IMG/VR virus record: IMGVR_UViG_2802429225_000008
Origin: a virus
Lineage: Duplodnaviria; Heunggongvirae; Uroviricota; Caudoviricetes
Reading direction: 5' to 3' (one strand)
DNA: 38,441 nt
Shown piece after piece: positions 724 to 18,893 of this stretch. How positions within the stretch are numbered: the first letter of the stretch is position 1; each line of letters starts with the position of its first letter. The notes beneath the pieces were generated by a model. It searched no databases. It was not told the DNA's origin and worked only from the letters and a program-made list of their open reading frames with translations. A program made the position numbers and the translations under genes.

Positions 724-733
724 GCTTGAACCT

Positions 734-1765: not shown

Positions 1766-1951
1766 AAAAAATGCCCTCCAGTAGAGAGCATTTTTACTGT
1801 ATGTATAACCAGTGTCAATGTATGAAATCCTGCGACCATACATCTCACTGAAGCCATAATGAAGTTAGCTATTTTTTGCTATGTGAGTATGTGACTTTTG
1901 CGGTTAGCCTGCGGCTCATTGTTATATTAGGCGCAGATATAAAAGCAAAAT

Positions 1952-2158: not shown

Positions 2159-2815
2159 TTACCTAACGTACTTAATTGTTAAACTTATAATTTTCCCAAT
2201 TATTTCAACATCTTCTATCTTGCACTCGAAGGCTCTGTTTCCACCTTCAACGAAGATTCTTCCACCGGGTAAACGAGTAATGTCGCGGATTGTTATTTCG
2301 CCATCAATACTTATTACCCATTTACCATCACGTATATCATCAAATTCTTTATCACAAATAAATTCAGAATTGTTATCTGTGATGACAAAAGGTTTTTTAA
2401 ACGTAGAGGGTAGAAATCCCTTATCAAAAATATAAAAACCGTCTTCACGCAAGGCACCATCAGATAATACATATTTAGCAACTTCCATAGTATTTGTATT
2501 ACCTGAAGTTTGCTTTGAACCATTTCCAGTTGTGAGCCAATTAAGCGAGGTGCCCGTTTCAAGGGCGCACTGGATTACCCAATCTGCCGGAAAAATATCA
2601 CGCATATAGCGCGTTGCCATGGTGCTCTTAGAAACACCTAAATGATCACAGAGAGCCTGACGGGTACCGAACCCATATGCTTCAACTAAACGTTCTATGG
2701 CTTTCTTACCGCCGCTATTGAAATCCACAAGTCCTCCAAAGAAATCCAAAATTCGTTGGCAGATTCCAAAAGCGATCTTAAAGTTGAACCAGAAGTGTTC
2801 TTTTGGAGCCTTCAC
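2159..2815 (-). CDS. cI: CI-type immunity repressor (HTH), 186-like
   Basis: HTH-like segment GFGTRQALCDHLGVSKSTMATRYMRD; divergent from apl/cox and cII as in phage 186. True start may be an internal GTG after a GGAGG (giving ~189 aa) rather than the first ATG. Confidence 0.7.
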   Translation of the reverse strand: MKAPKEHFWFNFKIAFGICQRILDFFGGLVDFNSGGKKAIERLVEAYGFGTRQALCDHLGVSKSTMATRYMRDIFPADWVIQCALETGTSLNWLTTGNGSKQTSGNTNTMEVAKYVLSDGALREDGFYIFDKGFLPSTFKKPFVITDNNSEFICDKEFDDIRDGKWVISIDGEITIRDITRLPGGRIFVEGGNRAFECKIEDVEIIGKIISLTIKYVR

Positions 2816-4942: not shown

Positions 4943-5241
4943 CAAGGGCAGTGCGTATCCATCAATTAAAAATTGCACCTAAGTATTTCAACGCTGTGGT
5001 TGCAGGTCAAAAGACGGCTGAACTTCGTAAAGACGATCGTGGCTATAAAGTTGGTGATGTTCTTTCTCTTTGCGAATGGAAGCATGGCGTATTTACGGGT
5101 AGGGAATGGGCCGCTGTTATCTCTCATGTGCTTCCGGTTAATGACGTCATGTCAGTTTCAGAACAATGGGTGATGCTATCAATTCGCCCATTAACCCCAT
5201 TAGAAGCTTTAGGATATGTTATTGCAGGAGGTGCTGTATGA
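4939..5241 (+). CDS. DUF3850-like (ASCH/PUA-like) protein
   Basis: [44 protein letters not shown]; start ATG 4939 after GGAGG; the gene is bracketed by identical 15-nt junctions (4928-4942 and 5227-5241). Confidence 0.6.
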
Positions 5242-6095
5242 GCACCATCCTGAAATGGGCGGGAAATAAAACCGCCATTATGTCCGAACTGAAAAAACAC
5301 CTTCCTGCTGGCCCGCGACTGGTTGAACCTTTCGCGGGTTCCTGTGCTGTGATGATGGAGACGGATTACCCCAGCTATCTGGTTGCGGATATTAATCCTG
5401 ATTTAATCAACCTCTATAAAAAGGTTGCCGCTGATTGTGAATCGTTTATATCTCGCGCCAGAGTTTTATTTGAGATCGCAAACAGGGAGGTGGCTTATTA
5501 CAACATAAGGCAGGAGTTTAATTACTCAACTGAAATTACTGATTTCATGAAAGCGGTATATTTCCTGTATCTCAATCGTCACGGTTACCGTGGTTTATGT
5601 CGCTATAACAAGAGCGGGCATTTCAACATTCCCTACGGTAATTATAAAAATCCGTATTTCCCTGAAAAAGAAATTCGCGCATTTGCAGAAAAAGCCCAGC
5701 GAGCAATGTTTATCTGCGCCAGCTTTGATGAAACGCTGGCGATGTTGAAGGCGGGGGATGTGGTGTATTGCGATCCGCCGTATGACGGTACGTTTTCCGG
5801 CTATCACACTGATGGTTTCACTGAAGATGACCAGTATCACCTGGCATCCGTTCTTGAACATCGGTCATCAGAAGGACATCCGGTCATTGTTTCTAACAGT
5901 GACACATCCCTGATCCGTTCGCTGTATCGCAATTTTACTCACCACTATATCAAGGTAAAACGCAGCATCGGTGTGGCAGCTGGCGAGGGTAAATCAGCAA
6001 CAGAAATCATTGCTGTTTCCGGGCCGCGCTGCTGGGTGGGATTTGATTATTCGCGTGGCGTGGATAGTTCTGCCGTGTACGGAGTGCGTGCATGA
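5238..6095 (+). CDS. dam: DNA adenine methyltransferase (Dam-like, D12 class)
   Basis: ILKWAGNK N-terminal motif, FAGS motif I and DPPY catalytic motif; start ATG 5238 after GGAGG. Confidence 0.85.
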
Positions 6096-8506
6096 GCCAT
6101 GCTGATATGAACAACTGCAGCGGCTTTAACGAGGCCGCCGCAGCATTCTCATGGAACAGCCCGAAAAAGGCGATTAACCCTTATCTGGACCCGGCGGAAG
6201 TTGCGCCGGTTTCTGCGCTTTCAAACCTGATCACTCTGTACGCTGCCGATAACAAGCAGGAACAACTGCGCCGCGAGGCACTGAGTGATCAGGTCTGGGA
6301 GCGTTATTTCTTTAATGAATCCCGTGATCCTGTCCAGCGCGAAATGGAGCAGGATAAGCTCATTAGCCGGGCAAAGCTGGTGCATGAGCAGCAGCGTTTT
6401 AATCCGGACATGGTCATACTGGCGGACGTTAACGCCCAGCCTTCCCATATCAGCAAGCCGCTGATGCAACGTATTGAATACTTCAGCAGCCTGGGCAGGC
6501 CAAAGGCTTATTCCCGCTATTTGCGTGAGACGATTAAACCATGTCTGGAACGACTGGAGCATGTACGCGACAGCCAGCTATCTGCATCTTTTCGTTTTAT
6601 GGCAAGCCATGAAGGGCTGGACGGCCTGCTGATCTTGCCTGAAATGAGTCAGGATCAGGTGAAGCGCCTGTCTACCCTTGTTGCCGCGCATATGAGCATG
6701 TGCCTTGATGCAGCTTGTGGTGATTTGTATGCCACCGATGACGTTAAGCCAGAAGAAATCCGCAAGACATGGGAAAGGGTGGCGGCGGAAACCCTGCGTC
6801 TGGATGTCATCCCTCCTGCGTTTGAGCAACTCCGCCGGAAAAGAAACCGCCGTAAACCCGTACCCTATGAACTCATTCCGGGTTCGCTGGCGCGTATGTT
6901 GTGCGCCGACTGGTGGTATCGGAAATTATGGAAGATGCGTTGCGAATGGCGGGAAGAGCAGTTGCGTGCTGTTTGCCTGGTCAGCAAAAAAGCATCTCCC
7001 TATGTCAGCTATGAAGCCGTGATGCATAAACGTGAGCAGCGCCGTAAGTCGCTGGAGTTTTTCCGTTCTCATGAACTGGTGAACGAAGACGGCGACACGC
7101 TGGATATGGAGGACGTGGTAAACGCCAGTAGTAGCAACCCGGCGCATCGCCGCAATGAGATGATGGCATGTGTTAAAGGTCTGGAGCTTATCGCGGAAAT
7201 GCGCGGTGACTGCGCCGTTTTCTACACCATCACCTGTCCGTCACGTTTCCATTCCACGCTAAATAACGGCAGGCCCAACCCGACTTGGACAAATGCGACG
7301 GTAAGACAAAGCAGTGATTATCTGGTCGGCATGTTTGCTGCATTTCGTAAGGCGATGTACAAAGCCGGATTGCGCTGGTATGGCGTGCGGGTGGCTGAGC
7401 CGCATCATGACGGTACAGTTCACTGGCACCTGTTGTGTTTTATGCGCAAAAAAGATCGCCGCGCCATTACTGCTTTGTTGCGTAAGTTTGCCATTCGTGA
7501 AGACCGCGAGGAGCTGGGTAATAACACAGGACCACGCTTTAAGTCTGAGCTGATAAACCCGCGCAAAGGTACACCAACAAGCTACATCGCGAAATACATC
7601 AGTAAGAACATTGACGGGCGTGGTCTGGCTGGCGAGATCAGCAAGGAAACGGGTAAATCTCTGCGTGATAACGCTGAATACGTTAATGCCTGGGCGTCTC
7701 TGCATCGTGTTCAGCAATTCCGCTTCTTTGGCATTCCGGGGCGTCAGGCTTACCGTGAACTGCGATTGCTGGCTGGTCAGGCGGCAAGGCAACAGGGTGA
7801 CAAAAAAGCAGGTGCGCCGGTACTGGATAACCCGCGCCTTGATGCCATTCTGGCTGCAGCTGATGCTGGTTGCTTTGCCACCTACATCATGAAGCAGGGC
7901 GGCGTACTGGTTCCCCGTAAATATCACCTCATCAGAACCGCTTATGAAATCAACGAAGAGCCGACCGCCTATGGCGATCACGGTATTCGTATTTATGGCA
8001 TCTGGTCACCCATTGCAGAGGGCAAGATCTGCACTCATGCAGTGAAGTGGAAAATGGTCCGTAAAGCCGTTGACGTTCAGGAGGCGGCAGCCGACCAGGG
8101 CGCTTGCGCCCCTTGGACTCGTGGCAATAACTGTCCCCTTGCTGAAAATTTGAACCAACAAGGGAAAGACAAATCAGCTGATGGGGATATCAGAACGGAC
8201 ATTACCCGCATGGATGACAAGGAGTTGCACGAATACCTGCACAGTATGAGCAAAAAAGAGCGCCGGGAACTGGCTGCAAGGTTACGCCTGGTGAAACCGA
8301 AACGGCGTAAAGACTACAAACAGCGAATTACAGACCATCAGCGACAGCAGCTCGTCTATGAACTGAAGTCCAGAGGATTTGATGGCAGCGAGAAAGAGGT
8401 CTATTTACTCCTTCGTGGCGGCAGTATTCCGTCAGGAGCAGGCCTGCGTATCTTCTATCGGAACCAGCGTTTGCAGGAAGATGATAAGTGGCGGAACCTG
8501 TATTAA
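6092..8506 (+). CDS. A: Replication initiation endonuclease (P2 gpA / 186 RepA family, rolling circle)
   Basis: 804-aa protein with the His-hydrophobic-His type block ([11 protein letters not shown]) and key-tyrosine region ([11 protein letters not shown]) typical of P2 A. Confidence 0.85.
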
Positions 8507-8600
8507 TTACGCGGGTTAACAATTCGTGCTCTTAATAATACCAGGCATTTCAGGCTGATGAACGTAAAAAAACGTTTTACATCAGTAAGATTATTATATA

Positions 8601-8616
8601 CTGTAAATATAAACAG
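8601..8616 (+). promoter_or_regulatory. LexA (SOS) box CTGTAAATATAAACAG
   Basis: Exact match to CTGT-N8-ACAG, 43 nt upstream of the ATG at 8659; a weaker half-site (TATACAGTA) follows at 8627-8636. Confidence 0.7.
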
Positions 8617-8658
8617 TGGTTATGTATACAGTATTGCTTTGGTGTCATAGGAGGAAAG

Positions 8659-8847
8659 ATGCAGGACTATTTTTTGGAGTCTTTGAAGCTCCAGCGCATT
8701 GATTTTTTTCTTAAGCTTGTAGCGGCTAGTGAGTGTAGTGATGAAGAGAAGGGGCTGGCTCTGCAGTGGGTATCTGAATTGACTGATGAACTCATGGCAA
8801 AAATCAGAACCCACGAATACAACCGCTCAATGGATGTCATCAGTTGA
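8659..8847 (+). CDS. Small protein of an SOS-controlled operon (Tum-like antirepressor candidate)
   Basis: Strong RBS AGGAGGA; immediately downstream of the LexA box; same position as tum in 186 (after A, before cos). Confidence 0.55.
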   Translation: MQDYFLESLKLQRIDFFLKLVAASECSDEEKGLALQWVSELTDELMAKIRTHEYNRSMDVIS

Positions 8848-8857
8848 GGTGACTTTT

Positions 8858-9091
8858 ATGCGCATTGAAATAATGATCGATAAAGAGCAGAAGATTAGCC
8901 AGTCTACCCTGGACGCCCTTGAATCCGAGCTTTACCGCAATCTGCGCCCCCTGTATCCCAAAACGGTAATTCGCATTCGCAAAGGTAGCTCTAACGGTGT
9001 GGAACTAACCGGACTGCAACTGGACGAAGAAAGAAAACAAGTGATGAAAATTATGCAGAAGGTGTGGGAAGACGACAGCTGGCTGCATTAA
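8858..9091 (+). CDS. DinI-family protein
   Basis: MRIEIMIDKEQKISQSTLDALESELYRNL...VWEDDSWL resembles E. coli DinI; RBS GAGGTGA before ATG 8858. Confidence 0.75.
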   Translation: MRIEIMIDKEQKISQSTLDALESELYRNLRPLYPKTVIRIRKGSSNGVELTGLQLDEERKQVMKIMQKVWEDDSWLH

Positions 9092-9226
9092 GAAACGTTG
9101 CTGGCGTCTGAACTTGCTTCTGGCGTCAGCAAGGTTGAACAACGAGCCCTTGCGAGGCGTTAGCTCTGTAGTGCATGTCTATGCCGCATGAGATCGCATG
9201 ATCGTTTGAGGATCGTTTTTGCTAAG

Positions 9227-9250
9227 GCCCGCCAGAACTGGCGGGCTTTT
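9227..9250 (+). terminator. Rho-independent terminator (gcccgccag-aac-tggcgggc-tttt)
   Basis: 8-bp GC-rich perfect stem, 3-nt loop and a T run, downstream of the tum/DinI operon. Confidence 0.6.
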
Positions 9251-9285
9251 GCGTAGATCATGCAGGTGCATGAAAACCACTACAT

Positions 9286-9304
9286 AAAGCGGGCAGGCGT
9301 GGCG
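9286..9304. other. cos: Candidate cos site (GGCGTGGCGGGGATACGAG)
   Basis: First 13 nt identical to the 186/P2 cohesive-end sequence as I recall it (GGCGTGGCGGGGAAAGCAT / GGCGAGGCGGGGAAAGCAC); lies between the early region and the packaging genes as in P2/186. Confidence 0.45.
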
Positions 9305-9505
9305 GGGATACGAGCGCGCGCTGAAAAGGTTTAGCTAAATTTTTGTCGATAGGTGGTTTTAGTTGTTATACAAAAGTGTCACTGGTTTTGTTTTGAGCAT
9401 TTGTGGTGCTAAAAATATTTTTTTTGGTTCAAAATTACCTTAAAAAGGTTTTTTTGGTGTATGATTGTTTGAAAAGTGGTTCGGTTTTGCCATAAGGGTG
9501 GTTAG

Positions 9506-10588
9506 ATGATAAACGTTACAAACGAAATGCTCATTGATGTTGTCAGTGATGCTCTTACCGGGAAGAGGGAAAGTCTCCTCATGCGGTTGCGGATTATGGC
9601 AAAAAAACTAAAAAAAGAATCTCCTGAATTAGCGGGTAAATTAGAAGATTTACTTATTAATACAGGTGGCGCAATTGCAGTCGAAAGGGCTAATCCAGTT
9701 GTTCCTAAAATAACACCTGTTGATGCGGATACAAGACAAAAGCTGCTAGTTGAAACATATCCTGTGGTCATTGATGTTGAACCTGTTTGGCCAACAAAAA
9801 CTGATGTTCAACTGAATCGATTTGTGGCTGAGTGGGAAATGAAAGAACGCCTTTATAAAGAAGGGTTGCATCCGTCCAAATCTCTTCTTATGGGAGGACC
9901 ACCCGGTGTGGGGAAGACTTTGGCTGCAAAGTGGCTCGCTTTTAAACTCGATATGCCATTGTTAACATTAGATCTCGCAAGTGTAATGAGTAGCTACTTG
10001 GGGAAAACGGGTAATAATATTAAGGCAGTCCTCAATTATGCTTCGTCATTCCCTTGTGTACTGCTTCTTGACGAATTTGATGCGATTGCTAAAAAAAGGG
10101 ATGATGCAACAGATGTTGGAGAACTAAAAAGATTAGTTACAGTATTATTGCAAGCAATTGATGAATGGCCAAATACGTCTGTTCTTATAGCAGCAACTAA
10201 CCATGCGGAGCTGCTTGATCCTGCTGCATGGAGAAGATTCGATCGAGTTATTGATTTTGAATATCCAACACAAGACCTAATGAGAAGATATCTCTGTTCT
10301 AAAAATATTGGAGATAGCTTATCGTACTATATTGCTACAAAACTCGAAAAAGTTTCATATGCAGTTCTTGAGAGAGCTATAAATCAAGCTAAAAGAAATG
10401 CCATTATAGAAGATATTCCTTTAAGTTCAGCTTTAATTGATGAGTTGTTAGATGGCGTGTCACTTGATGATGTTATAAAAAACATGTCAAACAACAATGT
10501 ATCACAAAGAAAAATCGCTTTAGATTTGGGGATTTCAAGGTCACAAGTACGTAAGGTTTTGACGGTTGAGGATGAAGACAATGAATGA
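9506..10588 (+). CDS. AAA+ ATPase (IetA-like) of an ATPase/subtilase pair
   Basis: Walker A GPPGVGKT, Walker B LLLDEFD, sensor-1 ATNH, then AAWRRFD; AT-rich by eye; 8-nt overlap with the downstream protease gene. Confidence 0.8.
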   Translation: MINVTNEMLIDVVSDALTGKRESLLMRLRIMAKKLKKESPELAGKLEDLLINTGGAIAVERANPVVPKITPVDADTRQKLLVETYPVVIDVEPVWPTKTDVQLNRFVAEWEMKERLYKEGLHPSKSLLMGGPPGVGKTLAAKWLAFKLDMPLLTLDLASVMSSYLGKTGNNIKAVLNYASSFPCVLLLDEFDAIAKKRDDATDVGELKRLVTVLLQAIDEWPNTSVLIAATNHAELLDPAAWRRFDRVIDFEYPTQDLMRRYLCSKNIGDSLSYYIATKLEKVSYAVLERAINQAKRNAIIEDIPLSSALIDELLDGVSLDDVIKNMSNNNVSQRKIALDLGISRSQVRKVLTVEDEDNE

Positions 10589-11690
10589 TAAAAATATGCT
10601 TCTTGGCTATGGTGAAACACTAACTAACCCTGTTAAACTTAACAGAGGTGGAGGTGAAAAGAATAAACCTTACTCTTATTCAGAAAATAAACCAGTGATA
10701 TCTGCTCAACTGGAAGAGTTGATTGAGGAAATTAATACCCTTCCATTGTTAGCAATGCCTGAAGGTAAGGCTGTAGCAAAATTTGTTTTGCATCCGGCAT
10801 TCTTAGCAAAAAGTTATTTTCCAGTAAGTCTTTTTGAGCGATTTTCCCTAGAAAGCATAGGCAGTAAGGCTGTAAAAGTAAAACCTAGAAAAGATATTAA
10901 AAAAAGAGGGCGAAAAGAGGAATACACTACAGCGTGTATTTATGTTTCTGGCAAAAAAGAAAGTTTTCAATCATTCTTAGACTCTGTAAATCAAGATACC
11001 CTAACGAAAGGGCAGCAAAATGATTTTGTCACCTTAGAAAATATTTCAATACTGGAAGTTTCAGATAAAGTAAAAACGATTAATAGCAATGAAGTTATGA
11101 GTATTGAGGTCGCCTTACATACTCCTGATACAATTTCCTCTATTGTCGATAGTTTTGAAGTTTTTGCTTCGCAAAATGGTGCTGTTATAGATAAGGCAAG
11201 AAGTATAAAGGTTAAGGGGCTAACCTTTATGCCTATTAAGGCTAGTAAAGATGTAGCTTTAAAAGTTGCAGAGTTTTCATTTCTCAGGACTTTGAGAGAA
11301 CTTCCTGAATTAAGGCTAAGTGAGCCTGTTATATCACGTTCTGTGATTCAAACATCTAACCTTAGTTTACCATCTGAAGGAGCGGTAAACCCACACATAA
11401 AGGTTGCCATATTCGATGGTGGATTGGGGATCGATGATTTCAATCCTTGGGTAACAGAGTACACTTTCAACGGTAATGCTAGTACTAATGCAAAACTTCT
11501 TTCTCATGGACAGGATGTCACCTCTACTGTGTTATTTGGTGTTCTTGGCTCTGAAACGGAAAAATTAAGTGTTCCTTATTGTAATATTGACCATTATCGT
11601 GTACTGGATTCTAATGTTAATAACTCAGATGTCGATCTTTTTGACGTTCTGATCCGTATTAAAAGTGTATTAGAACAAAAAAAAATATGA
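10581..11690 (+). CDS. S8 subtilisin-like serine protease (IetS-like), N-terminal part; interrupted by a frameshift at the A9 run 11677-11685
   Basis: Contains the catalytic Asp motif (VAIFDGG) and His motif (SHGQDVTS); ends ...LEQKKI* directly after a run of nine A. Start ATG 10581 preferred (GAGGA 9 nt upstream). Confidence 0.7.
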   Translation: MNDKNMLLGYGETLTNPVKLNRGGGEKNKPYSYSENKPVISAQLEELIEEINTLPLLAMPEGKAVAKFVLHPAFLAKSYFPVSLFERFSLESIGSKAVKVKPRKDIKKRGRKEEYTTACIYVSGKKESFQSFLDSVNQDTLTKGQQNDFVTLENISILEVSDKVKTINSNEVMSIEVALHTPDTISSIVDSFEVFASQNGAVIDKARSIKVKGLTFMPIKASKDVALKVAEFSFLRTLRELPELRLSEPVISRSVIQTSNLSLPSEGAVNPHIKVAIFDGGLGIDDFNPWVTEYTFNGNASTNAKLLSHGQDVTSTVLFGVLGSETEKLSVPYCNIDHYRVLDSNVNNSDVDLFDVLIRIKSVLEQKKI

Positions 11691-11739
11691 TTATATCAAT
11701 CTGAGCTTAGGACCTAGATTACCTGTTGATGACGATGAC

Positions 11740-12774
11740 GTGCATGTGTGGACCTCAACTCTTGAGGAGATACTTGCATCAGGAGAAACACTTTGTACTG
11801 TCGCGGTTGGAAATGATGGTCAGCTGCCTGCCAAGTTAAATCGAATTCAACCACCTGCTGATTTAGTTAATGGTCTGTCAGTAGGTGCAGCAACCTCTTT
11901 ATCTGATAGTTGGGAAAGATGTTCTTACAGTTGTATTGGTCCTGGACGAAGCCCTGGCTTTGTGAAGCCTGATGGAGTTGCATTTGGAGGACATTCTGAT
12001 GAGCCATTCCAGGTATACAGCCCTATGGTTAATGGTCTTGCCCGCACTGCGGGGACTAGCTTTTCAGCTCCATTAGTCCTGAGGCAAGCAATCGCGTTAA
12101 GTGCTTCTCTAAATTACAACATTACACCACTTACGGCTAAAGCTCTGCTTATACATCATGCGGAGAGCAATAATATCAATCGTGCTGAAGTTGGTTGGGG
12201 ACGATTTCCTCATGATCTTAGTGAAGTAATATTTTGTGATGATGATGAAGTTAAAGTTATATATCAAGGTACTTTAAAACCATCACAACACATGCGAGCA
12301 CCTATTCCGTTTCCAGATGTACCTATGCGTGGATGTGTAAATTTAAGAGCGACATTCTGCTTTTCCAGTCCTGTAGATGCGGAACATCCTTTGAATTATA
12401 CAAGAAGCGGTCTAGAAGTAACCATGAGAAAAGGTGTTTCAGATAGTTCCGGGTTAACGTTTCCTCTTTTTAATCTAAAAAATGTTTATGCAGATGAAAA
12501 TGAGCAACGTGTTGATGCACATAAATGGGAGACTACGTTAAGAAGTGAACACAAATTTAAACCGAATGAGCTGACAAACCCATGCTTTGATATTATCTAC
12601 TATGGTAGAGACTGTGGTATGCCTATTGATGTTGACGAGTTAGAAGAACTACCATATGTTCTTGTCGTGACTTTATCTGCTGAAGAAATGCCGGATTTAT
12701 ATAACCTAATTAGGCAGAAATATCAAACCTTACAGCCTATCCAAGTTCAACAGCAAATTATGTTACGTACTTAA
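11740..12774 (+). CDS. S8 subtilisin-like serine protease (IetS-like), C-terminal part in the +1 frame
   Basis: The frame is open from 11674 and reads KKKYDYINLSLGP...CTVAVGNDG...GTSFSAP, i.e. the subtilase INLSLG block, oxyanion-hole Asn and catalytic Ser. Continuous with the upstream ORF if one A is removed. Confidence 0.7.
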   Translation: MHVWTSTLEEILASGETLCTVAVGNDGQLPAKLNRIQPPADLVNGLSVGAATSLSDSWERCSYSCIGPGRSPGFVKPDGVAFGGHSDEPFQVYSPMVNGLARTAGTSFSAPLVLRQAIALSASLNYNITPLTAKALLIHHAESNNINRAEVGWGRFPHDLSEVIFCDDDEVKVIYQGTLKPSQHMRAPIPFPDVPMRGCVNLRATFCFSSPVDAEHPLNYTRSGLEVTMRKGVSDSSGLTFPLFNLKNVYADENEQRVDAHKWETTLRSEHKFKPNELTNPCFDIIYYGRDCGMPIDVDELEELPYVLVVTLSAEEMPDLYNLIRQKYQTLQPIQVQQQIMLRT

Positions 12775-12781
12775 CAATGTG

Positions 12782-12804
12782 GAGGGGTTCCCCCTCCTTT
12801 ATTA
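12782..12804 (+). terminator. Hairpin terminator (ggagggg-ttc-cccctcc followed by a T-rich run) between convergent genes
   Basis: 7-bp perfect stem followed by TTTATT, between the protease gene stop (12774) and the portal gene stop (12813). Confidence 0.5.
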
Positions 12805-12812
12805 AGCTTTAT

Positions 12813-13865
12813 CTATGTTGATTGTGGGTCATCGTTTATTAAGTTATATTTTTCAAAATGGATAATATTAATTCCTAACCATTCATTAAATTCCTGTAAT
12901 CGTTTTTGTAAAGGCATTAATTCATTTCGAACAAACACTCGACTCGCCTTCTCTACATCTCCAAATCCTCCAACATTACTTGGCATAATCCCCATCATTT
13001 GCGGCGGCACACGGTGTGCCGCCATCATGTCGTCTCGGCTCACGTTCTTGATGTTCAGAAATTCATCCTTCGCTGCGACTTCTGACAGCGGGATGATCTG
13101 AAGCCCGTCCTTTTTGCCGTTAGGCGAGTACATAAACAGGTTGCGGAAGTTGCCTGGACCTTTGGCGCTTTTCATCGCGTTGCGGAGGTTGTTCACATCT
13201 TCCTGGTTCTGCGCGGCGTCGGTCATATACATGATGAAGCCAGCATGACTGCCGTTAATGTAATACTTTCGACGGAACAGCGTGGCGGACTCATTGAGCA
13301 GGGCGGACGGAATGGCAGAAAGATAGCCGGGCAAGCCGTAGATCTCCTGGTTAATGTCCGGTTCCATCAGATGAAAAATGCTGCCTTTCGTGAACTGATA
13401 TGGCTGGGTTGTCATACCGTATTGCACAAACCAGTAGGTATCCAGGTCTAACCCGCGTCGGGTGTATTTTGCCAGCGCAGGCTCAAGGGCGATAACTTCA
13501 CCGAAGCGGTTCGTGCGTTTCTCCAGGTAGGCGTTACCAAAAACCAGATAGTCCTGCACAAAACGCGAAAAAGCCTGCTGGCTGAGCAGCGGGTGAGGGA
13601 TGTAGGTGCTGGTCAAAATGTTGCATTTCACCGCAATCGGTGAGCTGTGATGCACGGCGGCGCGGAAGGTTCGTGCCAGTCCGTCAAAGCTGACGGGCGG
13701 CTCATACCAGCGATCCATCTGTACGCATTCCACATAGTCCAGCAGTTCGCGGCGGTCCAGAACAGGAACGGGATCACCGAAGCTGAATGCTTCGGCTGAA
13801 GTCTGGCTTTTATGCTGGTTCTGGTTCGTCGACGCAGCGCGGTTCTTCTTACTCTTTCCCATCAA
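12813..13865 (-). CDS. Q: Portal protein (P2 gpQ family)
   Basis: 350-aa ORF resembling P2 Q; first gene of the packaging block, adjacent to and co-oriented with the large terminase. Confidence 0.85.
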   Translation of the reverse strand: MMGKSKKNRAASTNQNQHKSQTSAEAFSFGDPVPVLDRRELLDYVECVQMDRWYEPPVSFDGLARTFRAAVHHSSPIAVKCNILTSTYIPHPLLSQQAFSRFVQDYLVFGNAYLEKRTNRFGEVIALEPALAKYTRRGLDLDTYWFVQYGMTTQPYQFTKGSIFHLMEPDINQEIYGLPGYLSAIPSALLNESATLFRRKYYINGSHAGFIMYMTDAAQNQEDVNNLRNAMKSAKGPGNFRNLFMYSPNGKKDGLQIIPLSEVAAKDEFLNIKNVSRDDMMAAHRVPPQMMGIMPSNVGGFGDVEKASRVFVRNELMPLQKRLQEFNEWLGINIIHFEKYNLINDDPQST

Positions 13866-15628
13866 AAAATCTCCACAATATTGCTGGCATTGGCGGACTC
13901 GCCCTGCAGCGGTTCGTTAAACAGTGCGTGCATTGTTGCCCAGGCCAGATCGGCATGGCTGGCTTCTTCGCTGCGGCTGGCTTCATAGGTCGGGCGGTTG
14001 CCGCTGGCGGTGGTGGCGCGACGGATTGCCATGAATGACTGCGCAATGTCGGTGTGTCCGGCGTCAAATTCCAGGCGGCGGTGACTGATAATGTCGTAGG
14101 CCTTGAGTACCAGGGCGTTTTTAACGTTGGGGTTGTAGACAAACTCCCGGACGGCAGGAAAAAACGCTTTCACGTTCTCGTAAACCCCGTGACCGACGCC
14201 GGTCGAGTCGATGCCGATATAGGTCACGTTATACTGTTCGGTCAGTTTTTTGATGGCGTCAGCCTGGGCGCGGAAGTCCATTCCGCGCCACTGGTGACGC
14301 TCAAGAATGCGGAACTTACCGCCCGGCACGGCTGGCGGTGCCACCACCACGCATCCGGCGCTGTCGCCGTTCTGCGTACCTTTTGCCGGGTCATAACCGA
14401 TCCACACTTCGCGCCAGCCAAACGGGCGCAGGGCCAGTGCATGAAAGTCGGTCCAGACTTCCCAACTGTCCACCATGCACGCCTGCAGCTCGCTGAGTGG
14501 GAACACGGACGCGAGATCGTCCACGAACTCACACATCAGCAGGTTCTGGTATTCGTCCGGGCTGTATTCCATGCGCAACTGGTCAAGGTCGAACAGGTTA
14601 CAGCCGCCGCGCACCGCATCTTCTACGGTGACTATCTGGCGGTATTGCCCGTCTGCGCACAGCAGGCCGGGGGCCAGATTGCTGTGGGACAGGTCGATGT
14701 CCACCTTGTCGGCTTTGTTGCGTCCACGGTTGAACAGCGCACCGGACCAGAACGGATAAGCACTGTGGGTCAGGCTGGATGGCGTGGAAAAATAGGTTTG
14801 TCGCCATTTTTTGTGAATAGCCATACCGGAAGCCACTTTGCGCAGCTCCTGGAATTTCGGTATCCAGAAATATTCATCCAGATACAGGTTGCCGTGGTAA
14901 CTCTGGGCAGTGCGGGCATTGGTGCCGAGGAAATACAGTGTGGCCCCGTTGGGAAGCACCATCGGATCGCCTTTCAGCTCCACTTCCACTTCTTTGGCGA
15001 AGTCGATGATGTACTGCTTAAAGACGTGCGCCTGTGCCTTACTGGCAGAAAGGAAAATCTGGTTACGTCCGGTTAGCAGGGCGTCAATCAGGGCTTCACG
15101 GGCAAAATAGAAGGTCGCGCCGATCTGGCGTGACTTCAGCAGGTTGCGGATGCGGTTGGTTTTTCCGGCTTCCCACCAGTGACGCTGGTAGTTGAACATG
15201 GAGGAATGGAAGATTTCTTCCAGCTTCTCAATCTGTTCATCGGTGAAAACATTCTTTTCAGGCTGACGGCGCGGGCCTTTGTTGCGGTTGGCGACGTTAG
15301 GGTTTAAGTCGGCTTCGTTGCCGCCATTGTTAAACTTGCCGATCCGCGCGTGGCGCTCAGACTGGCGCGCCAGCAGGTCAATCTCTTTGAAATCTTTCCC
15401 TTCTTTGTGCTCCTTCATAATGAGCTGGCAGTAGCGTGCGGCAGTGGTGAGCTGCATCTGATCCAGCGGCCCATAGTCACCCCACTTGTCGCGTTTTTTC
15501 CAGCTGTGAACGGTTGCAACTTTCTCGCCCAGCATTTCAGCAATGCGGGCTACGCGGTATCCCTGAAAGTACAGCAGCATGGCCTGCCGACGGGGATCGA
15601 GATCTGCGGGTGTCAGTGTGGTGTTCAT
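13862..15628 (-). CDS. P: Terminase large (ATPase) subunit (P2 gpP family)
   Basis: 588-aa ORF resembling P2 P; overlaps the Q start by 4 nt. Confidence 0.9.
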   Translation of the reverse strand: MNTTLTPADLDPRRQAMLLYFQGYRVARIAEMLGEKVATVHSWKKRDKWGDYGPLDQMQLTTAARYCQLIMKEHKEGKDFKEIDLLARQSERHARIGKFNNGGNEADLNPNVANRNKGPRRQPEKNVFTDEQIEKLEEIFHSSMFNYQRHWWEAGKTNRIRNLLKSRQIGATFYFAREALIDALLTGRNQIFLSASKAQAHVFKQYIIDFAKEVEVELKGDPMVLPNGATLYFLGTNARTAQSYHGNLYLDEYFWIPKFQELRKVASGMAIHKKWRQTYFSTPSSLTHSAYPFWSGALFNRGRNKADKVDIDLSHSNLAPGLLCADGQYRQIVTVEDAVRGGCNLFDLDQLRMEYSPDEYQNLLMCEFVDDLASVFPLSELQACMVDSWEVWTDFHALALRPFGWREVWIGYDPAKGTQNGDSAGCVVVAPPAVPGGKFRILERHQWRGMDFRAQADAIKKLTEQYNVTYIGIDSTGVGHGVYENVKAFFPAVREFVYNPNVKNALVLKAYDIISHRRLEFDAGHTDIAQSFMAIRRATTASGNRPTYEASRSEEASHADLAWATMHALFNEPLQGESANASNIVEIF

Positions 15629-15675
15629 GGCATAAACCTACAGCCTTGAATGACGGCTTTCCCCGCCTGCGGTTT

Positions 15676-15693
15676 GTGTGGTTGTCGGTACAA
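15676..15693. promoter_or_regulatory. Ogr/Delta-type late promoter element (TGT-N12-ACA) in the P/O divergent region
   Basis: tgtgtggttgtcggtaca between the P and O starts; matches the P2 late-promoter activator site pattern. Confidence 0.5.
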
Positions 15694-15770
15694 ATACCGC
15701 GCATTGTTTCACTGCCCCCATCACCGCAACCATAAGGCTCCAGTAAGTTTTTTCTAACGGAGCACGGCTC

Positions 15771-16604
15771 ATGACAGTGAAAGCAAAGCGTTTTCGCATC
15801 GGGGTGGAAGGTGCCACCACCGACGGACGCGAAATCCAGCGTGAATGGCTGGAACAGATGGCAGCCAGCTACAACCCGGCGGTGTATACCGCGCTGATTA
15901 ACCTTGAGCACATCAAGTCTTATCTGCCGGACAGCACCTTTAACCGCTACGGCAAGGTGACGGCGCTGTTTGCTGAAGAAATCACGGAAGGTCCGCTGGC
16001 AGGCAAGATGGCGCTGTATGCCGACGTTGAGCCAACGGAGTCCCTGGTGGAACTGGTGAAAAAAGGCCAGAAATTATTCACCTCTATGGAAGTCAGCCCG
16101 AAGTTCGCTGATACGGGCAAAGCCTACCTGGTCGGCCTGGCTGCCACTGATGACCCTGCCAGTCTGGGTACGGAAATGCTGACATTCAGCGCCAGTGCAG
16201 CCCATAACCCACTGGCAAACCGCAAGCAGAATCCTGCCAATCTCTTTACCGCTGCAGAGGAAACGGTGATCGAACTGGAAGAAATCCAGGATGACAAACC
16301 GTCCCTGTTTGCCCGTGTCACGGCGCTGTTTACAAAAAAAGAGCAGTCCGACGATGCCCGGTTTTCTGATGTGCATAAGGCCGTGGAACTGGTCGCCACT
16401 GAGCAGCAAAACCTGAGTGTGCGCACCGAAAAATCCCTTTCTGAGCAGGAAGAACGTCTGTCTGAGCTGGAGACAGTTCTGCAGGCACAACAGGCCGCCT
16501 TTAACGAACTGGTGGACAAGCTGAGCCATGAAGACAGCCGCCAGGACTACCGCCAGCGTGCAACGGGCGGTAACGCCCCCGCTGACACTCTGACCAATTG
16601 CTGA
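15771..16604 (+). CDS. O: Capsid scaffolding protein (P2 gpO family)
   Basis: MTVKAKRFRIGVEGATTDGREIQREWLEQMAASYNP... resembles P2 O. Confidence 0.9.
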   Translation: MTVKAKRFRIGVEGATTDGREIQREWLEQMAASYNPAVYTALINLEHIKSYLPDSTFNRYGKVTALFAEEITEGPLAGKMALYADVEPTESLVELVKKGQKLFTSMEVSPKFADTGKAYLVGLAATDDPASLGTEMLTFSASAAHNPLANRKQNPANLFTAAEETVIELEEIQDDKPSLFARVTALFTKKEQSDDARFSDVHKAVELVATEQQNLSVRTEKSLSEQEERLSELETVLQAQQAAFNELVDKLSHEDSRQDYRQRATGGNAPADTLTNC

Positions 16605-16620
16605 TGGAGCACAAAACCTG

Positions 16621-17679
16621 ATGAAGAAGAATACCCGCTTTGCTTTTAACGCTTACCTGCAGCAGCTGGCGCGTCTGAACGGTGTGGCAGTTGAAGAACT
16701 GTCCAGCAAGTTCACCGTGGAGCCGTCTGTACAGCAGACGCTGGAAGACCAGATCCAGCAGTCCGCCGCTTTCCTGACGCTGATTAACGTCACGCCAGTG
16801 ACTGAGCAGTCCGGTCAGCTGCTGGGGCTGGGTGTTGGCAGCACCATTGCCGGAACCACTGACACCACCGCGAAAGAGCGTGAACCTGTCGATCCGACGC
16901 TGATGGTCGATGTGGAATACAAATGCGAACAGACCAACTTTGACACAGTGCTGACCTACGCGAAGCTGGACCTGTGGGCGAAGTTTCAGGATTTCCAGGT
17001 GCGTATCCGTAACGCCATCGTGAAACGTCAGGCACTGGACCGCATCATGATCGGCTTTAACGGCGTGAAGCGTGCGAAAACCTCCAACCGCAGCGAAAAC
17101 CCGCTGCTGCAGGATGTGAACAAAGGCTGGTTGCAGAAAATCCGTGAGGATGCACCGGATCACGTCATGGGCAGCACCACCACGGGCGGTGAAACCACAC
17201 CGGGTGCGGTGAAAGTCGGGAAAGGTGGCGAATATGCCAACCTGGACGCCGTGGTGATGGATGCCGTTAACGAGCTTATCGACGTGGTCTATCAGGACGA
17301 TGACGATCTGGTTGTGATTTGCGGTCGTGAACTGCTGTCTGACAAGTATTTCCCGCTGGTCAACAAAGAGCAGGAAAACAGTGAAAAACTGGCTGCCGAT
17401 ATGATCATCAGTCAGAAACGCATGGGTGGCCTGCAGGCCGTGCGTGCGCCGTTCTTCCCGCCGAATGCGCTGCTGATCACCCGTCTGGATAACCTGTCCA
17501 TCTACTGGCAGGAAGACACCCGCCGTCGTTCGGTTATCGACAACCCAAAACGTGACCGGATTGAAAATTTTGAATCCGTTAACGAAGCCTATGTGGTTGA
17601 GGACTACCGCTGCGCTGCACTGGTGGAAAACATCCAGATTGGCGACTTCAGCGCAGCCGCAGCAGAAGCCGGAGCGTAA
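16621..17679 (+). CDS. N: Major capsid protein (P2 gpN family)
   Basis: Similarity along the whole length to P2 N (e.g. FTVEPSV, ...ISQKR..., ...VVEDY...). Confidence 0.9.
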   Translation: MKKNTRFAFNAYLQQLARLNGVAVEELSSKFTVEPSVQQTLEDQIQQSAAFLTLINVTPVTEQSGQLLGLGVGSTIAGTTDTTAKEREPVDPTLMVDVEYKCEQTNFDTVLTYAKLDLWAKFQDFQVRIRNAIVKRQALDRIMIGFNGVKRAKTSNRSENPLLQDVNKGWLQKIREDAPDHVMGSTTTGGETTPGAVKVGKGGEYANLDAVVMDAVNELIDVVYQDDDDLVVICGRELLSDKYFPLVNKEQENSEKLAADMIISQKRMGGLQAVRAPFFPPNALLITRLDNLSIYWQEDTRRRSVIDNPKRDRIENFESVNEAYVVEDYRCAALVENIQIGDFSAAAAEAGA

Positions 17680-17682
17680 TCC

Positions 17683-18333
17683 ATGAGCCTGAGTCCCGCA
17701 CGGCAGCATCGCCTGCGCGTTCAGGCTGAACAGGCCGCCCGCGAGGGCGGCAGTGTTCGCCACGCGTCGGGCTATGACCTGATGCTGCTGCAACTGGCGG
17801 AAGACCGCCGTCGTCTCAAGGGCGTTCAGTCCACGGTCAAAAAAGCGGAAATCAAAGTGGAGCTGCTGCCGAAGTACGCCGCCTGGGCGGAGGGTGTCCT
17901 GGCTGCCGGAGGCGCTCAACAGGATGACGTGCTGATGTACGTGATGCTGTGGCGCATTGATGCCGGAGATTATGCCGGGGCGCTGGAGATCGGGCGTCAT
18001 GCCCTGCGTCATGGCTGGGTGATGCCGCTGGGTAATCGCAACGTGCAGACCGTGCTGGCAGAGGAAATGGCAGACGCCGCACAGAGCGCAATGCTTGCCG
18101 CCACCGGCTTTGATGTCGATCTGTTGCTGCAGACGCTGGAGCTGACAGACGGTCTGGATATGCCGGACCAGTCACGGGCGCGTCTGCATAAAGCGATTGG
18201 CGCGGTCCTGAGTGAAAGCAATCCGGCTTCCGCCCTTAATCATCTCAACCATGCGTTACAGCTCGATCCCCGCTGTGGCGTGAAAAAAGACAAACAGCAG
18301 CTGGAGCGCAGACTGCGCAATGACAGCTGCTGA
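17683..18333 (+). CDS. M: Terminase small (endonuclease) subunit (P2 gpM family)
   Basis: Position after N and size in the P2 late operon. Confidence 0.8.
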   Translation: MSLSPARQHRLRVQAEQAAREGGSVRHASGYDLMLLQLAEDRRRLKGVQSTVKKAEIKVELLPKYAAWAEGVLAAGGAQQDDVLMYVMLWRIDAGDYAGALEIGRHALRHGWVMPLGNRNVQTVLAEEMADAAQSAMLAATGFDVDLLLQTLELTDGLDMPDQSRARLHKAIGAVLSESNPASALNHLNHALQLDPRCGVKKDKQQLERRLRNDSC

Positions 18334-18428
18334 CAGAACGTGCCCCCGCGCACGGGCGGCACGGGGTGGCGAAAGGCACTGCTACATCAAAACCCCGTCC
18401 ACCGCCCTCTATTTCAGGAGAAAGCAGC

Positions 18429-18893
18429 ATGAAGTTTGTTGCGCCAGAACAGGCACCGGAACAGGCGGAAATCATCAGAAATACGCCGTTCTGGCCTGAT
18501 GTGGACCTGTCGGAGTTTCGCAGTGTCATGCGCACTGACGGCACGGTGACGCAGCCGCGTTTAAAGCAGGTTGCGCTGTCGGCAATTTCGGAGGTCAACG
18601 CAGAGCTGTATGAGTTTCGCAGACGCCAGCAGATGCTGGGATATTCCTCGCTGGCAGAGGTTCCGGCTGAACAGCTGGACGGCAAAAGTGAGCGCATTCA
18701 TCACTATTTCAACGCGGTTTACTGCTGGGCACGCGCCATGCTCAACGAGCGTTATCAGGACTATGACGCCACGGCATCCGGTGTGAAGCGGGGCGAGGAA
18801 CTGGCGGAAGCAAGCGGTGATTTGTGGCGTGATGCCCGCTGGGCCATCAGCCGGGTGCAGGATGCGCCGCACTGCACAGTGGAGCTTATCTGA
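18429..18893 (+). CDS. L: Head completion/stabilisation protein (P2 gpL family)
   Basis: Start ATG 18429 preceded by CAGGAGAAAG (the ORF-track start at 18366 is a GTG); position after M. Confidence 0.8.
   Translation: MKFVAPEQAPEQAEIIRNTPFWPDVDLSEFRSVMRTDGTVTQPRLKQVALSAISEVNAELYEFRRRQQMLGYSSLAEVPAEQLDGKSERIHHYFNAVYCWARAMLNERYQDYDATASGVKRGEELAEASGDLWRDARWAISRVQDAPHCTVELI

What the first reader, a model, noticed from the sequence alone, without database searches (positions are those of the whole stretch)
9506..12774. AT-rich AAA+ ATPase plus S8 subtilase pair (IetAS-like candidate anti-phage system) between cos and the portal gene
Two translationally coupled genes (8-nt ATGAATGA overlap) lie between the cos-like site and Q, in DNA that looks AT-richer than the phage core. 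The first encodes a classical AAA+ ATPase (Walker A GPPGVGKT, Walker B LLLDEFD, sensor ATNH). The second encodes a subtilisin-like protease with a ~280-aa N-terminal region of unknown function followed by the Asp (VAIFDGG), His (SHGQDVTS), INLSLG, oxyanion-Asn (VAVGNDG) and Ser (GTSFSAP) motifs. This architecture matches what I recall as the IetAS defense system (Gao et al. 2020); I have not confirmed that by search. Its position corresponds to the accessory slot that holds tin/old in P2.
Basis: partly seen in the sequence, partly recalled or inferred. Interest (0 to 1): 0.85.

Follow-up and report, generated by a model that had tools for sequence, protein, structure and literature searches.

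The report
Frameshifted IetAS defence pair in P2-like prophage
This is a known two-gene anti-phage system (IetAS: an AAA+ ATPase plus a subtilisin-like protease) in the known cargo hotspot of a P2/186-like prophage, and in this copy a one-base slip in a run of A's has broken the protease gene.

Summary
ietA (9506-10588, 360 aa) and ietS (10581-12774) overlap by 8 nt.

PADLOC models identify both proteins as IetA (6.7e-84) and IetS. The intact allele in other genomes scores 1.8e-48.

Related P2/186-like phages share only the flanks and carry other cargo in this slot (AIPR, a retron-type RT, Hypoth_Ymh). It is therefore variable cargo.

None of this is new. Rousset et al. 2022 list ietAS as the 7th commonest system in the P2 gpA-gpQ hotspot (400 of 18,150 loci). 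Their table contains this very protein pair, WP_001513123 + WP_001513122.

The local twist is that ietS is split at an A9 run (11677-11685). Four fetched E. coli relatives have A8 and an intact 730-aa protein. The break separates Asp279 and His309 from Asn411 and Ser493. The identical A9 allele occurs in three assembly records, so it is probably real.

Added detail:
- The IetS N-terminal region models as subtilase-prodomain-like.
- IetA is Cdc48/VAT-like, with a probable C-terminal HTH.

Verdict: interpretation supported, already known, probably inactive here. Low interest.

The parts
9296..9314 (+). cos-like site, GGCGTGGCGGGGATACGAG. It marks the left boundary of the cargo slot.
   Evidence: 15/19 bases identical to the phage 186 cos and 14/19 to P2 cosL. 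The flanking bases are also shared: AAGCGGGC upstream and GCGCGC downstream.
9322..12876 (.). Variable cargo segment. Homology with related P2/186-like phages is lost inside these limits.
   Evidence: blastn against L005-L008: the left flank ends at 9321-9324 and the right flank resumes at 12877-12906. GC is 0.35-0.41 here against 0.53-0.60 in the phage core.
9322..9505 (+). AT-rich leader upstream of ietA. The promoter is presumably here but was not identified.
   Evidence: The simple sigma-70 scan found no match at 9 of 12 or better in this stretch. Only short chance-level repeats were found. That a promoter lies here is inferred only.
9506..10588 (+). ietA: intact AAA+ ATPase, 360 aa.
   Evidence: Pfam AAA 5.4e-30. 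PADLOC IetA 6.7e-84. The exact sequence occurs on at least 1000 public contigs. The closest solved relatives are VAT, Cdc48 and p97 (2.9e-41).
9896..9919 (+). IetA Walker A, GPPGVGKT (residues 131-138).
   Evidence: invariant in 7 IetA sequences.
9995..10003 (+). IetA pore-loop-1-like Y-L-G (residues 164-166).
   Evidence: Aligns with WVG and YYG of VAT domains D2 and D1. Across 7 IetA sequences the first position is Y, F or L, and the following LGKTG is invariant.
10061..10081 (+). IetA Walker B, LLLDEFD (residues 186-192).
10193..10243 (+). IetA sensor-1 ATNH (residues 230-233) and the WRRFD arginine-finger region (residues 242-246).
   Evidence: Invariant in alignment A3. Aligns with the second region of homology of VAT.
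10487..10561 (+). Probable C-terminal helix-turn-helix of IetA (about residues 328-352).
   Evidence: Several sub-threshold Pfam HTH hits fall on the same residues. A precomputed HTH_23 hit is recorded on the Vibrio homologue and a weak one on the Pseudomonas homologue. The S-x-R-x-I core is invariant. Rousset 2022 labels the protein AAA/HTH_50.
10581..11690 (+). ietS 5' piece, 369 aa then a stop. It encodes the N-terminal prodomain-like region plus catalytic Asp279 (11415-11417) and His309 (11505-11507).
   Evidence: PADLOC IetS 2.2e-13, profile positions 25-349. The exact product is WP_236942056.1.
10581..11402 (+). IetS N-terminal region (residues 1-274): two alpha/beta modules. The second (about residues 173-240) has a beta-alpha-beta-beta-alpha-beta order like subtilase propeptides.
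11677..11685 (+). A9 homopolymer: site of the +1 insertion that splits ietS at about codons 366-368.
   Evidence: Four fetched E. coli relatives have A8. All 11 E. coli matches span 3512 or 3493 nt, one base shorter than the query range they cover. The run is not conserved in Serratia, Vibrio or Leptospira ietS.
11692..12774 (+). ietS 3' piece in the +1 frame. It encodes INLSLG, Asn411 (11812-11814), Ser493 (12058-12060) and a C-terminal beta-sandwich domain. The ORF listing entry begins at GTG 11740.
12781..12797 (.). GC-rich hairpin GGAGGGGTTCCCCCTCC between the convergent ietS and Q genes. It looks like a terminator.
   Evidence: A terminator is annotated just downstream of the portal gene in P2 (tQ) and in 186 (tW).
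12813..13865 (-). Portal gene Q: right flank of the slot.
   Evidence: Annotated as phage portal protein in relatives.
8786..9091 (+). DinI-like gene: conserved left-flank gene. RefSeq calls a shorter 77-aa version.
   Evidence: Pfam DinI 1.3e-22. Annotated in relatives.

Best explanation
The locus is an IetAS anti-phage and toxin-antitoxin-like module. It is carried as horizontally acquired cargo in the cos-proximal gpA-gpQ hotspot of a P2/186-like prophage in an Escherichia genome.

In intact copies, ietA and ietS are co-transcribed and translationally coupled (shown).

IetS is a cytoplasmic subtilase. It has an N-terminal tandem alpha/beta region that resembles subtilase prodomains, an S8 catalytic domain and a C-terminal beta-sandwich (from the model).

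IetA is a classical-clade, Cdc48/VAT-like AAA+ ATPase with a pore-loop-like motif and a probable C-terminal HTH (shown by sequence).

From the literature, IetS is the toxic effector and IetA restrains it. A phage protein can trigger the system, and a Bacillus homologue protects by abortive infection.

My inferred mechanism is this. IetS is held latent by its own prodomain-like region and by IetA, which remodels it with ATP. Phage infection removes that restraint, and IetS then cleaves cellular or phage proteins and aborts the infection.

In this window a +1 slip (A8 to A9) at 11677-11685 separates Asp279 and His309 from Asn411 and Ser493. This copy is therefore most likely an ietS pseudogene next to an intact ietA, and not an active defence. 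At most it is leaky through transcriptional slippage.
For: Family identity:
- PADLOC IetA 6.7e-84, and the two IetS pieces fall on consecutive parts of profile PDLC02197. The intact allele scores 1.8e-48.
- Pfam AAA and S8 hits.
- In 5 distant genomes (Vibrio, Leptospira, Pseudomonas, Serratia, Methylophaga) an AAA gene of 357-369 aa lies directly upstream of the S8 gene with a 1-8 nt overlap.

Cargo status:
- Related phages share only the flanks. Hypoth_Ymh, RT or AIPR genes occupy the slot in the three annotated examples.
- GC is 38% against 56%.
- 11 of 5426 complete E. coli genomes carry the pair.

Already catalogued:
- PMC9122126 Table S5B lists system 7, 'Peptidase_S8 | AAA', with 400 occurrences, labelled ietAS. 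Table S5A lists WP_001513123 + WP_001513122 in NZ_CP025849, which is my hit H5.

Frameshift:
- A9 here against A8 in 4 fetched relatives.
- The repaired product is 726/730 identical to P0001 with no gaps.
- The identical A9 allele is found in GCA_002965135.1, SRR3989727 and ERR13763643.

Mechanism:
- The NAR 2026 paper describes the protease as toxin and the ATPase as antitoxin, reports that ietA mutants of its helicase-containing ietHAS variant could not be cloned, and states that the anti-phage mechanism is unknown (PMC13069673).
- The B. cereus ietAS system acts by abortive infection and is triggered by SPbeta yosG (10.1101/2022.08.27.505566).
- IetA aligns with VAT, Cdc48 and p97, including the pore loop.
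Against: - No experiment was done on this allele, and neither the trigger nor the substrates of IetS are known.
- The aromatic pore-loop position is Leu in 2 of 7 IetA sequences.
- E. coli EC102 carries a nonsense codon in ietA (Arg247 to stop) with an intact ietS. That fits poorly with IetA being an indispensable antitoxin.
- A9 runs are prone to transcriptional slippage, which can restore disrupted ORFs at the mRNA level (PMC1088944). 'Inactive' is therefore not proven.
Confidence: 0.85

Rival explanations
1. The locus is still a working, attenuated or switchable defence system. RNA polymerase slippage on the A9 run makes a fraction of A8 or A11 transcripts, or DNA slippage flips the run between A9 and A8 within the population. 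Either route would yield some full-length IetS.
For: Runs of nine A or T are the length at which transcriptional slippage becomes significant in many bacteria, and slippage can restore disrupted ORFs (PMC1088944). Removing one A restores the full frame exactly. ietA and the whole 3' piece of ietS show no other damage. The only coding difference from the E. coli allele WP_001513122 is S185I.
Against: The A run is not conserved in more distant ietS genes, so it is not a designed slippery site. All 11 complete E. coli genomes have the shorter form, which was checked as A8 in 4 of them. No mixed A8/A9 population was observed in the three datasets with the A9 allele; all three are A9.
Confidence: 0.1
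2. The extra A is a homopolymer sequencing or assembly error, and the real locus is an intact IetAS.
For: Homopolymer length errors are common in some sequencing chemistries. Every other public allele examined is A8.
Against: The same 3513-nt sequence, including A9 and two private SNPs (11134, 11612), appears in one NCBI assembly and in two separately assembled read sets. NCBI holds the truncated products under the label 'MULTISPECIES ... unclassified Escherichia'.
Confidence: 0.07
3. The main role of the pair is prophage addiction and stabilisation as a toxin-antitoxin module, as first described for ietAS on a plasmid. Anti-phage defence would then be secondary.
For: IetAS was first described as a plasmid-stabilising toxin-antitoxin system, as cited in PMC13069673. 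About a quarter of P2-like hotspot loci carry plasmid-partition genes (PMC9122126). The direction of decay here, toxin lost and antitoxin kept, is what a toxin-antitoxin module predicts.
Against: Homologues have measured anti-phage activity and an abortive-infection phenotype. The slot holds mostly defence genes in relatives. The two roles are not mutually exclusive.
Confidence: 0.15

Closest known systems
IetAS defence system (named in PADLOC after Gao et al. 2020; first described as a Ti-plasmid toxin-antitoxin pair, as cited in PMC13069673)
   Same: The gene order is the same: an AAA+ ATPase followed by an S8 subtilase, translationally coupled. The protein sizes match (about 360 and 730 aa). 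Both proteins give strong matches to the IetA and IetS HMMs. Catalytic and ATPase motifs are conserved.
   Different: ietS in this window is interrupted by a +1 frameshift in an A9 run, so no single polypeptide carries the whole catalytic triad. No activity data exist for this allele.
P2-like prophage gpA-gpQ cos-proximal defence hotspot (Rousset et al. 2022, PMC9122126)
   Same: The flanks are the same: A replication endonuclease, a small ORF, DinI and cos on the left, portal Q on the right. The cargo is AT-rich and is replaced by other systems in relatives. The very pair WP_001513123 + WP_001513122 is listed in their Table S5A, and ietAS is system 7 in Table S5B.
   Different: Nothing differs at the level of the hotspot. 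Within it, this cargo lies between cos and Q, whereas P2 tin/old lie between A and cos.
ietHAS (Liu-DS4), the helicase-containing IetAS variant (PMC13069673)
   Same: It shares the IetA and IetS modules. In that system protease activity is required for defence and ietA mutants could not be cloned.
   Different: There is no SNF2-type helicase gene here. The slot holds only two genes between cos and Q.
Pro-subtilisins and the intramolecular prodomain (I9) control of S8 proteases
   Different: IetS has no N-terminal hydrophobic stretch of the signal-peptide kind (first 40 residues; not formally tested), so it is probably cytoplasmic. Its N-terminal region is about 270 aa with two modules. It is paired with an AAA+ ATPase rather than being auto-processed after secretion. 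Autoprocessing was not tested.

Membership tests
IetAS | The IetA component matches the IetA profile over most of its length. | tested here: met
   PADLOC PDLC02196 6.7e-84, protein residues 7-355 on profile positions 5-371 of 374. Pfam AAA 5.4e-30.
IetAS | The IetS component is an S8 subtilase that matches the IetS profile. | tested here: met
   The two pieces hit PDLC02197 at profile positions 25-349 (2.2e-13) and 383-634 (1.7e-27). The intact allele scores 1.8e-48. Pfam S8 scores 2.9e-17 on the repaired protein.
IetAS | The two genes are adjacent on the same strand as one operon, ATPase first. | tested here: met
   8-nt overlap, ATGAATGA. The same arrangement, with 1-8 nt overlaps, is seen in 5 distant genomes.
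IetAS | IetS is encoded as one uninterrupted protein carrying Asp, His, Asn and Ser. This is needed for function, not for homology. | tested here: not met
   The A9 run at 11677-11685 shifts the frame after about codon 366. Asp279 and His309 end up in one ORF, Asn411 and Ser493 in another. The locus is therefore filed as a pseudogenised member, not as an intact system.
IetAS | Protects against phage, with dependence on the protease active site. | not testable with these tools
   Only literature on homologues is available.
IetAS | IetS is toxic and IetA neutralises it (toxin-antitoxin behaviour). | not testable with these tools
   Literature only. The natural ietA nonsense allele in EC102, which has an intact ietS, is a possible counter-example.
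P2-like gpA-gpQ hotspot cargo | Lies between the replication gene A and the portal gene Q, next to cos, in a P2-family prophage. | tested here: met
   A at 6092-8506, cos-like site at 9296-9314, Q at 12813-13865, P at 13862-15628. Annotations in relatives agree. An integrase and a CI repressor lie upstream.
P2-like gpA-gpQ hotspot cargo | The content varies between otherwise similar phages, and its composition is atypical. | tested here: met
   62 phage records match only the flanks, and the four fetched hold other genes in the slot. GC is 0.38 against 0.56.
CBASS-associated TRIP13/HORMA regulators (considered because of weak PADLOC hits) | A full-length TRIP13 profile match together with HORMA and CD-NTase neighbours. 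| tested here: not met
   The TRIP13 hits are only 3e-12, against 7e-84 for IetA, and cover only the AAA core. No HORMA or CD-NTase gene fits in the slot; its only other large ORF is ietS.

The most novel reading that the evidence does not exclude
IetS may be a cytoplasmic zymogen whose tandem prodomain-like N-terminal region is the handle that the Cdc48/VAT-like IetA ring grips. IetAS would then be an 'unfoldase-gated protease' immune switch. In this lineage the A8/A9 tract would additionally act as a slippage-based attenuator, leaving trace amounts of full-length IetS. No solved structure of either protein turned up in the PDB sequence searches, and a 2026 paper still calls the anti-phage mechanism unknown.
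Probability: 0.2. Interest if true: 0.5.

Novelty: already known. Interest (0 to 1): 0.15.

Why it matters
It matters little as a discovery. Both the system and its location in P2-like prophages are published, down to these protein accessions.

It has some use as an annotation point. A defence-finder tool would probably flag this lysogen as IetAS-positive, although the protease gene is broken.

Three observations bear on the still-unknown IetAS mechanism:
- In this lineage the toxin is lost and the antitoxin is kept.
- One E. coli genome shows the opposite: an ietA nonsense codon with an intact ietS.
- The N-terminal region of IetS looks like a subtilase prodomain.

Tried and rejected
- Programmed frameshift. 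I checked whether the A run is conserved in Serratia, Vibrio and Leptospira ietS. It is not; the longest A runs there are 6-7 nt and lie elsewhere. Rejected as a designed site.
- Operator repeats upstream of ietA for the putative HTH. Only short chance-level repeats were found. No conclusion.
- Sigma-70 promoter scan. Nothing at 9 of 12 or better in 9322-9505, and the overall count is below the shuffle mean. The promoter is not located.
- Solved structures. No IetS or IetA entry was found by sequence; the only IetS hit is subtilisin E at 5e-3, and IetA hits generic Cdc48, p97 and VAT.
- TRIP13 and generic 'subtilase' PADLOC hits. Dismissed as core-domain similarity.
- Near-identity search of the phage collection. 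No phage record carries this ietAS at megablast level. I did not run a protein-mode search of phages or plasmids.
- Three paper-tool calls failed because a search term was shorter than three characters, and one more later.
Full report
**Observation**

The window carries a P2/186-like prophage. It has an integrase (734-1843, minus strand), a CI repressor (2159-2815, minus strand), a Dam-type methylase (5166-6095) and the replication endonuclease A (6092-8506). These are followed by a DinI-like gene (8786-9091), then portal Q (12813-13865, minus strand) and terminase P (13862-15628, minus strand).

Between DinI and Q lie the two genes of the finding. ietA is an intact ATG ORF at 9506-10588 (360 aa). 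ietS starts at ATG 10581, so the two overlap by the 8 nt ATGAATGA.

In IetA they are GPPGVGKT at residue 131, LLLDEFD at 186 and ATNH at 230. In IetS they are FDGG (Asp279), SHGQ (His309), INLSLG, GNDG (Asn411) and GTSF (Ser493). The four catalytic residues are invariant in an alignment of 32 homologues down to 42% identity.

The pair has 38.1% GC, against 56.3% for the structural genes at 13000-21000.

A cos-like site, GGCGTGGCGGGGATACGAG, lies at 9296-9314. It matches 15 of 19 bases of the phage 186 cos and 14 of 19 of P2 cosL, and the bases flanking it on both sides are also shared.

**The subtilase gene is broken**

The ORF listing gives two ORFs, 10566/10581-11690 and 11740-12774. The break is at a run of nine A's at 11677-11685. 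Deleting one A yields a 730-aa protein that aligns without gaps to the database representative P0001, 726/730 identical.

Eleven of 5426 complete E. coli genomes carry the same locus at 99.7% identity or better. Each match is one base shorter than the query range it covers (3512 or 3493 nt). In the four I fetched, the run is A8 and RefSeq annotates an intact 730-aa S8 peptidase, for example WP_001513122.1.

The frameshift falls at about codon 366. It lies between His309 and Asn411/Ser493, so no single product has a complete active site.

The exact truncated products exist in NCBI as WP_236942056.1 and WP_236942055.1, labelled 'unclassified Escherichia'. The whole 3513-nt segment, including A9 and two private SNPs, is 100% identical in GCA_002965135.1 and in separate assemblies of SRR3989727 and ERR13763643. 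The frameshift is therefore probably a real lineage-specific mutation rather than a random error. I could not inspect reads.

**Identity**

Pfam finds AAA (5.4e-30) in IetA and Peptidase_S8 in IetS: 9.9e-12 on the 3' piece and 2.9e-17 on the repaired protein.

PADLOC models give IetA 6.7e-84 over almost the whole profile. For IetS they give two hits on consecutive parts of PDLC02197, profile positions 25-349 and 383-634. The intact E. coli allele scores 1.8e-48.

The IetS family is large, with 1030 hits at E <= 1e-5 among the candidates scored. Its length is strikingly constant at about 723-742 aa across Proteobacteria and beyond.

In five distant genomes (Vibrio cholerae, Leptospira kmetyi, Pseudomonas alcaligenes, Serratia, Methylophaga) an AAA gene of 357-369 aa sits directly upstream with a 1-8 nt overlap. 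The surroundings are often mobile or defence contexts: integrases, IS elements, a CD-NTase/Cap15 pair, or another P2-type A gene.

**Cargo status**

A megablast of 8500-13900 against 50,697 phage records finds 62 P2/186-like phages that match only the flanks, about a third of the query.

In the four records I fetched, left homology ends at 9321-9324, a few bases after cos. Right homology resumes at 12877-12906, which is 64-93 nt inside the 3' end of Q.

The slot holds a Hypoth_Ymh-domain gene in Escherichia phage vB_EcoM-813R9. It holds a reverse-transcriptase pair in Klebsiella phage 4LV2017. It holds an AIPR abortive-infection gene in Klebsiella ST11-VIM1phi8.4. In p13P477T-2 it holds a frameshifted hypothetical gene.

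One correction applies. P2 tin and old lie between A and cosR, at P2 positions 30684-33380 with cosR at 33575-33593. The present cargo lies on the other side of cos, between cos and Q. In P2 and 186 that interval holds only about 170 bp and a terminator.

**Comparison with what is known**

Rousset et al. 2022 (PMC9122126) analysed exactly this cos-proximal gpA-gpQ region in all E. coli genomes. They found 1,650 gene arrangements in 18,150 loci.

[quoted passage not shown] That is my hit H5 / locus L002.

Wu et al. (10.1101/2022.08.21.504612) also point to a prophage location as the possible reason ietAS and Zorya II are mutually exclusive in E. coli.

The system, its location and even this allele are therefore already catalogued.

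**How it most likely works**

From the literature:
- IetAS was first described as a plasmid-stabilising toxin-antitoxin pair, with the serine protease as toxin and the ATPase as antitoxin.
- In the related ietHAS system, protease activity is needed for defence and ietA mutants could not be cloned.
- As of April 2026 the anti-phage mechanism is stated to be unknown (PMC13069673).
- A Bacillus cereus ietAS acts by abortive infection and is triggered by expression of the SPbeta protein YosG (10.1101/2022.08.27.505566).

From my analysis of IetA:
- Its closest solved relatives are VAT, Cdc48 and p97 (2.9e-41).
- A Y-L-G motif aligns with the pore-loop-1 WVG/YYG of VAT. Across seven IetA sequences the first position is Y, F or L, and LGKTG is invariant.
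- The C-terminus gives several sub-threshold HTH hits on the same residues. It has an invariant S-x-R-x-I core. Precomputed HTH_23 hits are recorded on two homologues.

From my analysis of IetS:
- Its first 40 residues contain no hydrophobic stretch of the signal-peptide kind. This was not formally tested.
- The AlphaFold2 model (pLDDT 82, pTM 0.86) shows an N-terminal region of two alpha/beta modules, the S8 domain and a C-terminal beta-sandwich.

My inference, which is not shown, is as follows. IetS is a latent cytoplasmic protease restrained by its own prodomain-like region and by ATP-dependent remodelling by IetA. A phage cue lifts that restraint and IetS proteolysis aborts the infection. 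The HTH may autoregulate the operon, as antitoxins often do.

**Status in this window**

With the triad split, the copy is most likely inactive. It would be an orphan ietA next to an ietS pseudogene. Loss of the toxin with retention of the antitoxin is the expected path of decay for a toxin-antitoxin-like module.

Two caveats apply:
- Runs of 9 A are the length at which transcriptional slippage becomes significant, and slippage can restore disrupted ORFs at the mRNA level (PMC1088944). Low-level full-length IetS cannot be excluded.
- The A run is not conserved in more distant ietS genes, so it is an incidental mutational hotspot rather than a programmed site.

**Verdict**

Novelty is 'already known', and the local copy is probably defective. 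Interest is low (0.15).

The most novel reading my evidence leaves open concerns the family mechanism, an unfoldase-gated zymogen, rather than this window.

Noticed in passing
window 21621-22373 (minus strand), island 21500-22500: A 250-aa ORF sits in a 29-34% GC island embedded in the 55-60% GC late-gene block. It has no Pfam or PADLOC hit. It may be another cargo gene of unknown function.
   Followed up: partly
window 26817-28028 (minus strand), island 26000-28500: An Acyl_transf_3 family gene (1.6e-27) lies in a 30-38% GC island just downstream of the tail-fibre assembly gene (26325-26753). From memory, this is where P2 carries Z/fun. It is probably a surface-polysaccharide acyltransferase acting in lysogenic conversion.
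   Followed up: partly
window 1-756 (minus strand): A 251-aa AT-rich ORF (GC about 0.34-0.39) lies next to the integrase at the prophage edge. It has no Pfam or PADLOC hit.
   Followed up: partly
L001 (E. coli EC102, NZ_CP196706.1), equivalent to window 10244: A CGA to TGA change at IetA codon 247 truncates IetA just after the WRRFD arginine-finger motif, removing the C-terminal third including the putative HTH, while ietS stays intact. A viable strain with this genotype fits poorly with IetA being an essential antitoxin.
   Followed up: partly
L004 (E. coli Ecol_AZ147) 6548-7660: An IS421 transposase is inserted between ietS and the portal gene. This is further evidence that the spot tolerates insertions.
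   Followed up: no
window 9716-9736 (IetA residues 71-77): An invariant P-V-D-x-D-x-R motif lies in the otherwise variable N-terminal region of IetA, across 7 sequences from Escherichia to Leptospira. Its role is unknown.
   Followed up: no
window 12813-12906: Homology to related phages resumes only 64-93 nt inside the 3' end of portal gene Q. The last 20-30 codons of Q either travel with the cargo or diverge unusually fast.
   Followed up: no
window 9089-9173, against L006/L007 2091-2936: Klebsiella relatives carry a second insertion of about 845 bp (a hypothetical gene of 678 nt) between DinI and cos. Both sides of cos can therefore hold cargo.
   Followed up: partly
window 5166-6095: A D12-class adenine methyltransferase matches the PADLOC orphan-MTase model (3e-111). 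It is a conserved prophage gene in relatives and may protect against restriction.
   Followed up: no
L017 (Pseudomonas alcaligenes) 5590-7298: In this genome ietAS sits next to a CD-NTase plus Cap15 (CBASS) pair, which is a defence-island context.
   Followed up: no
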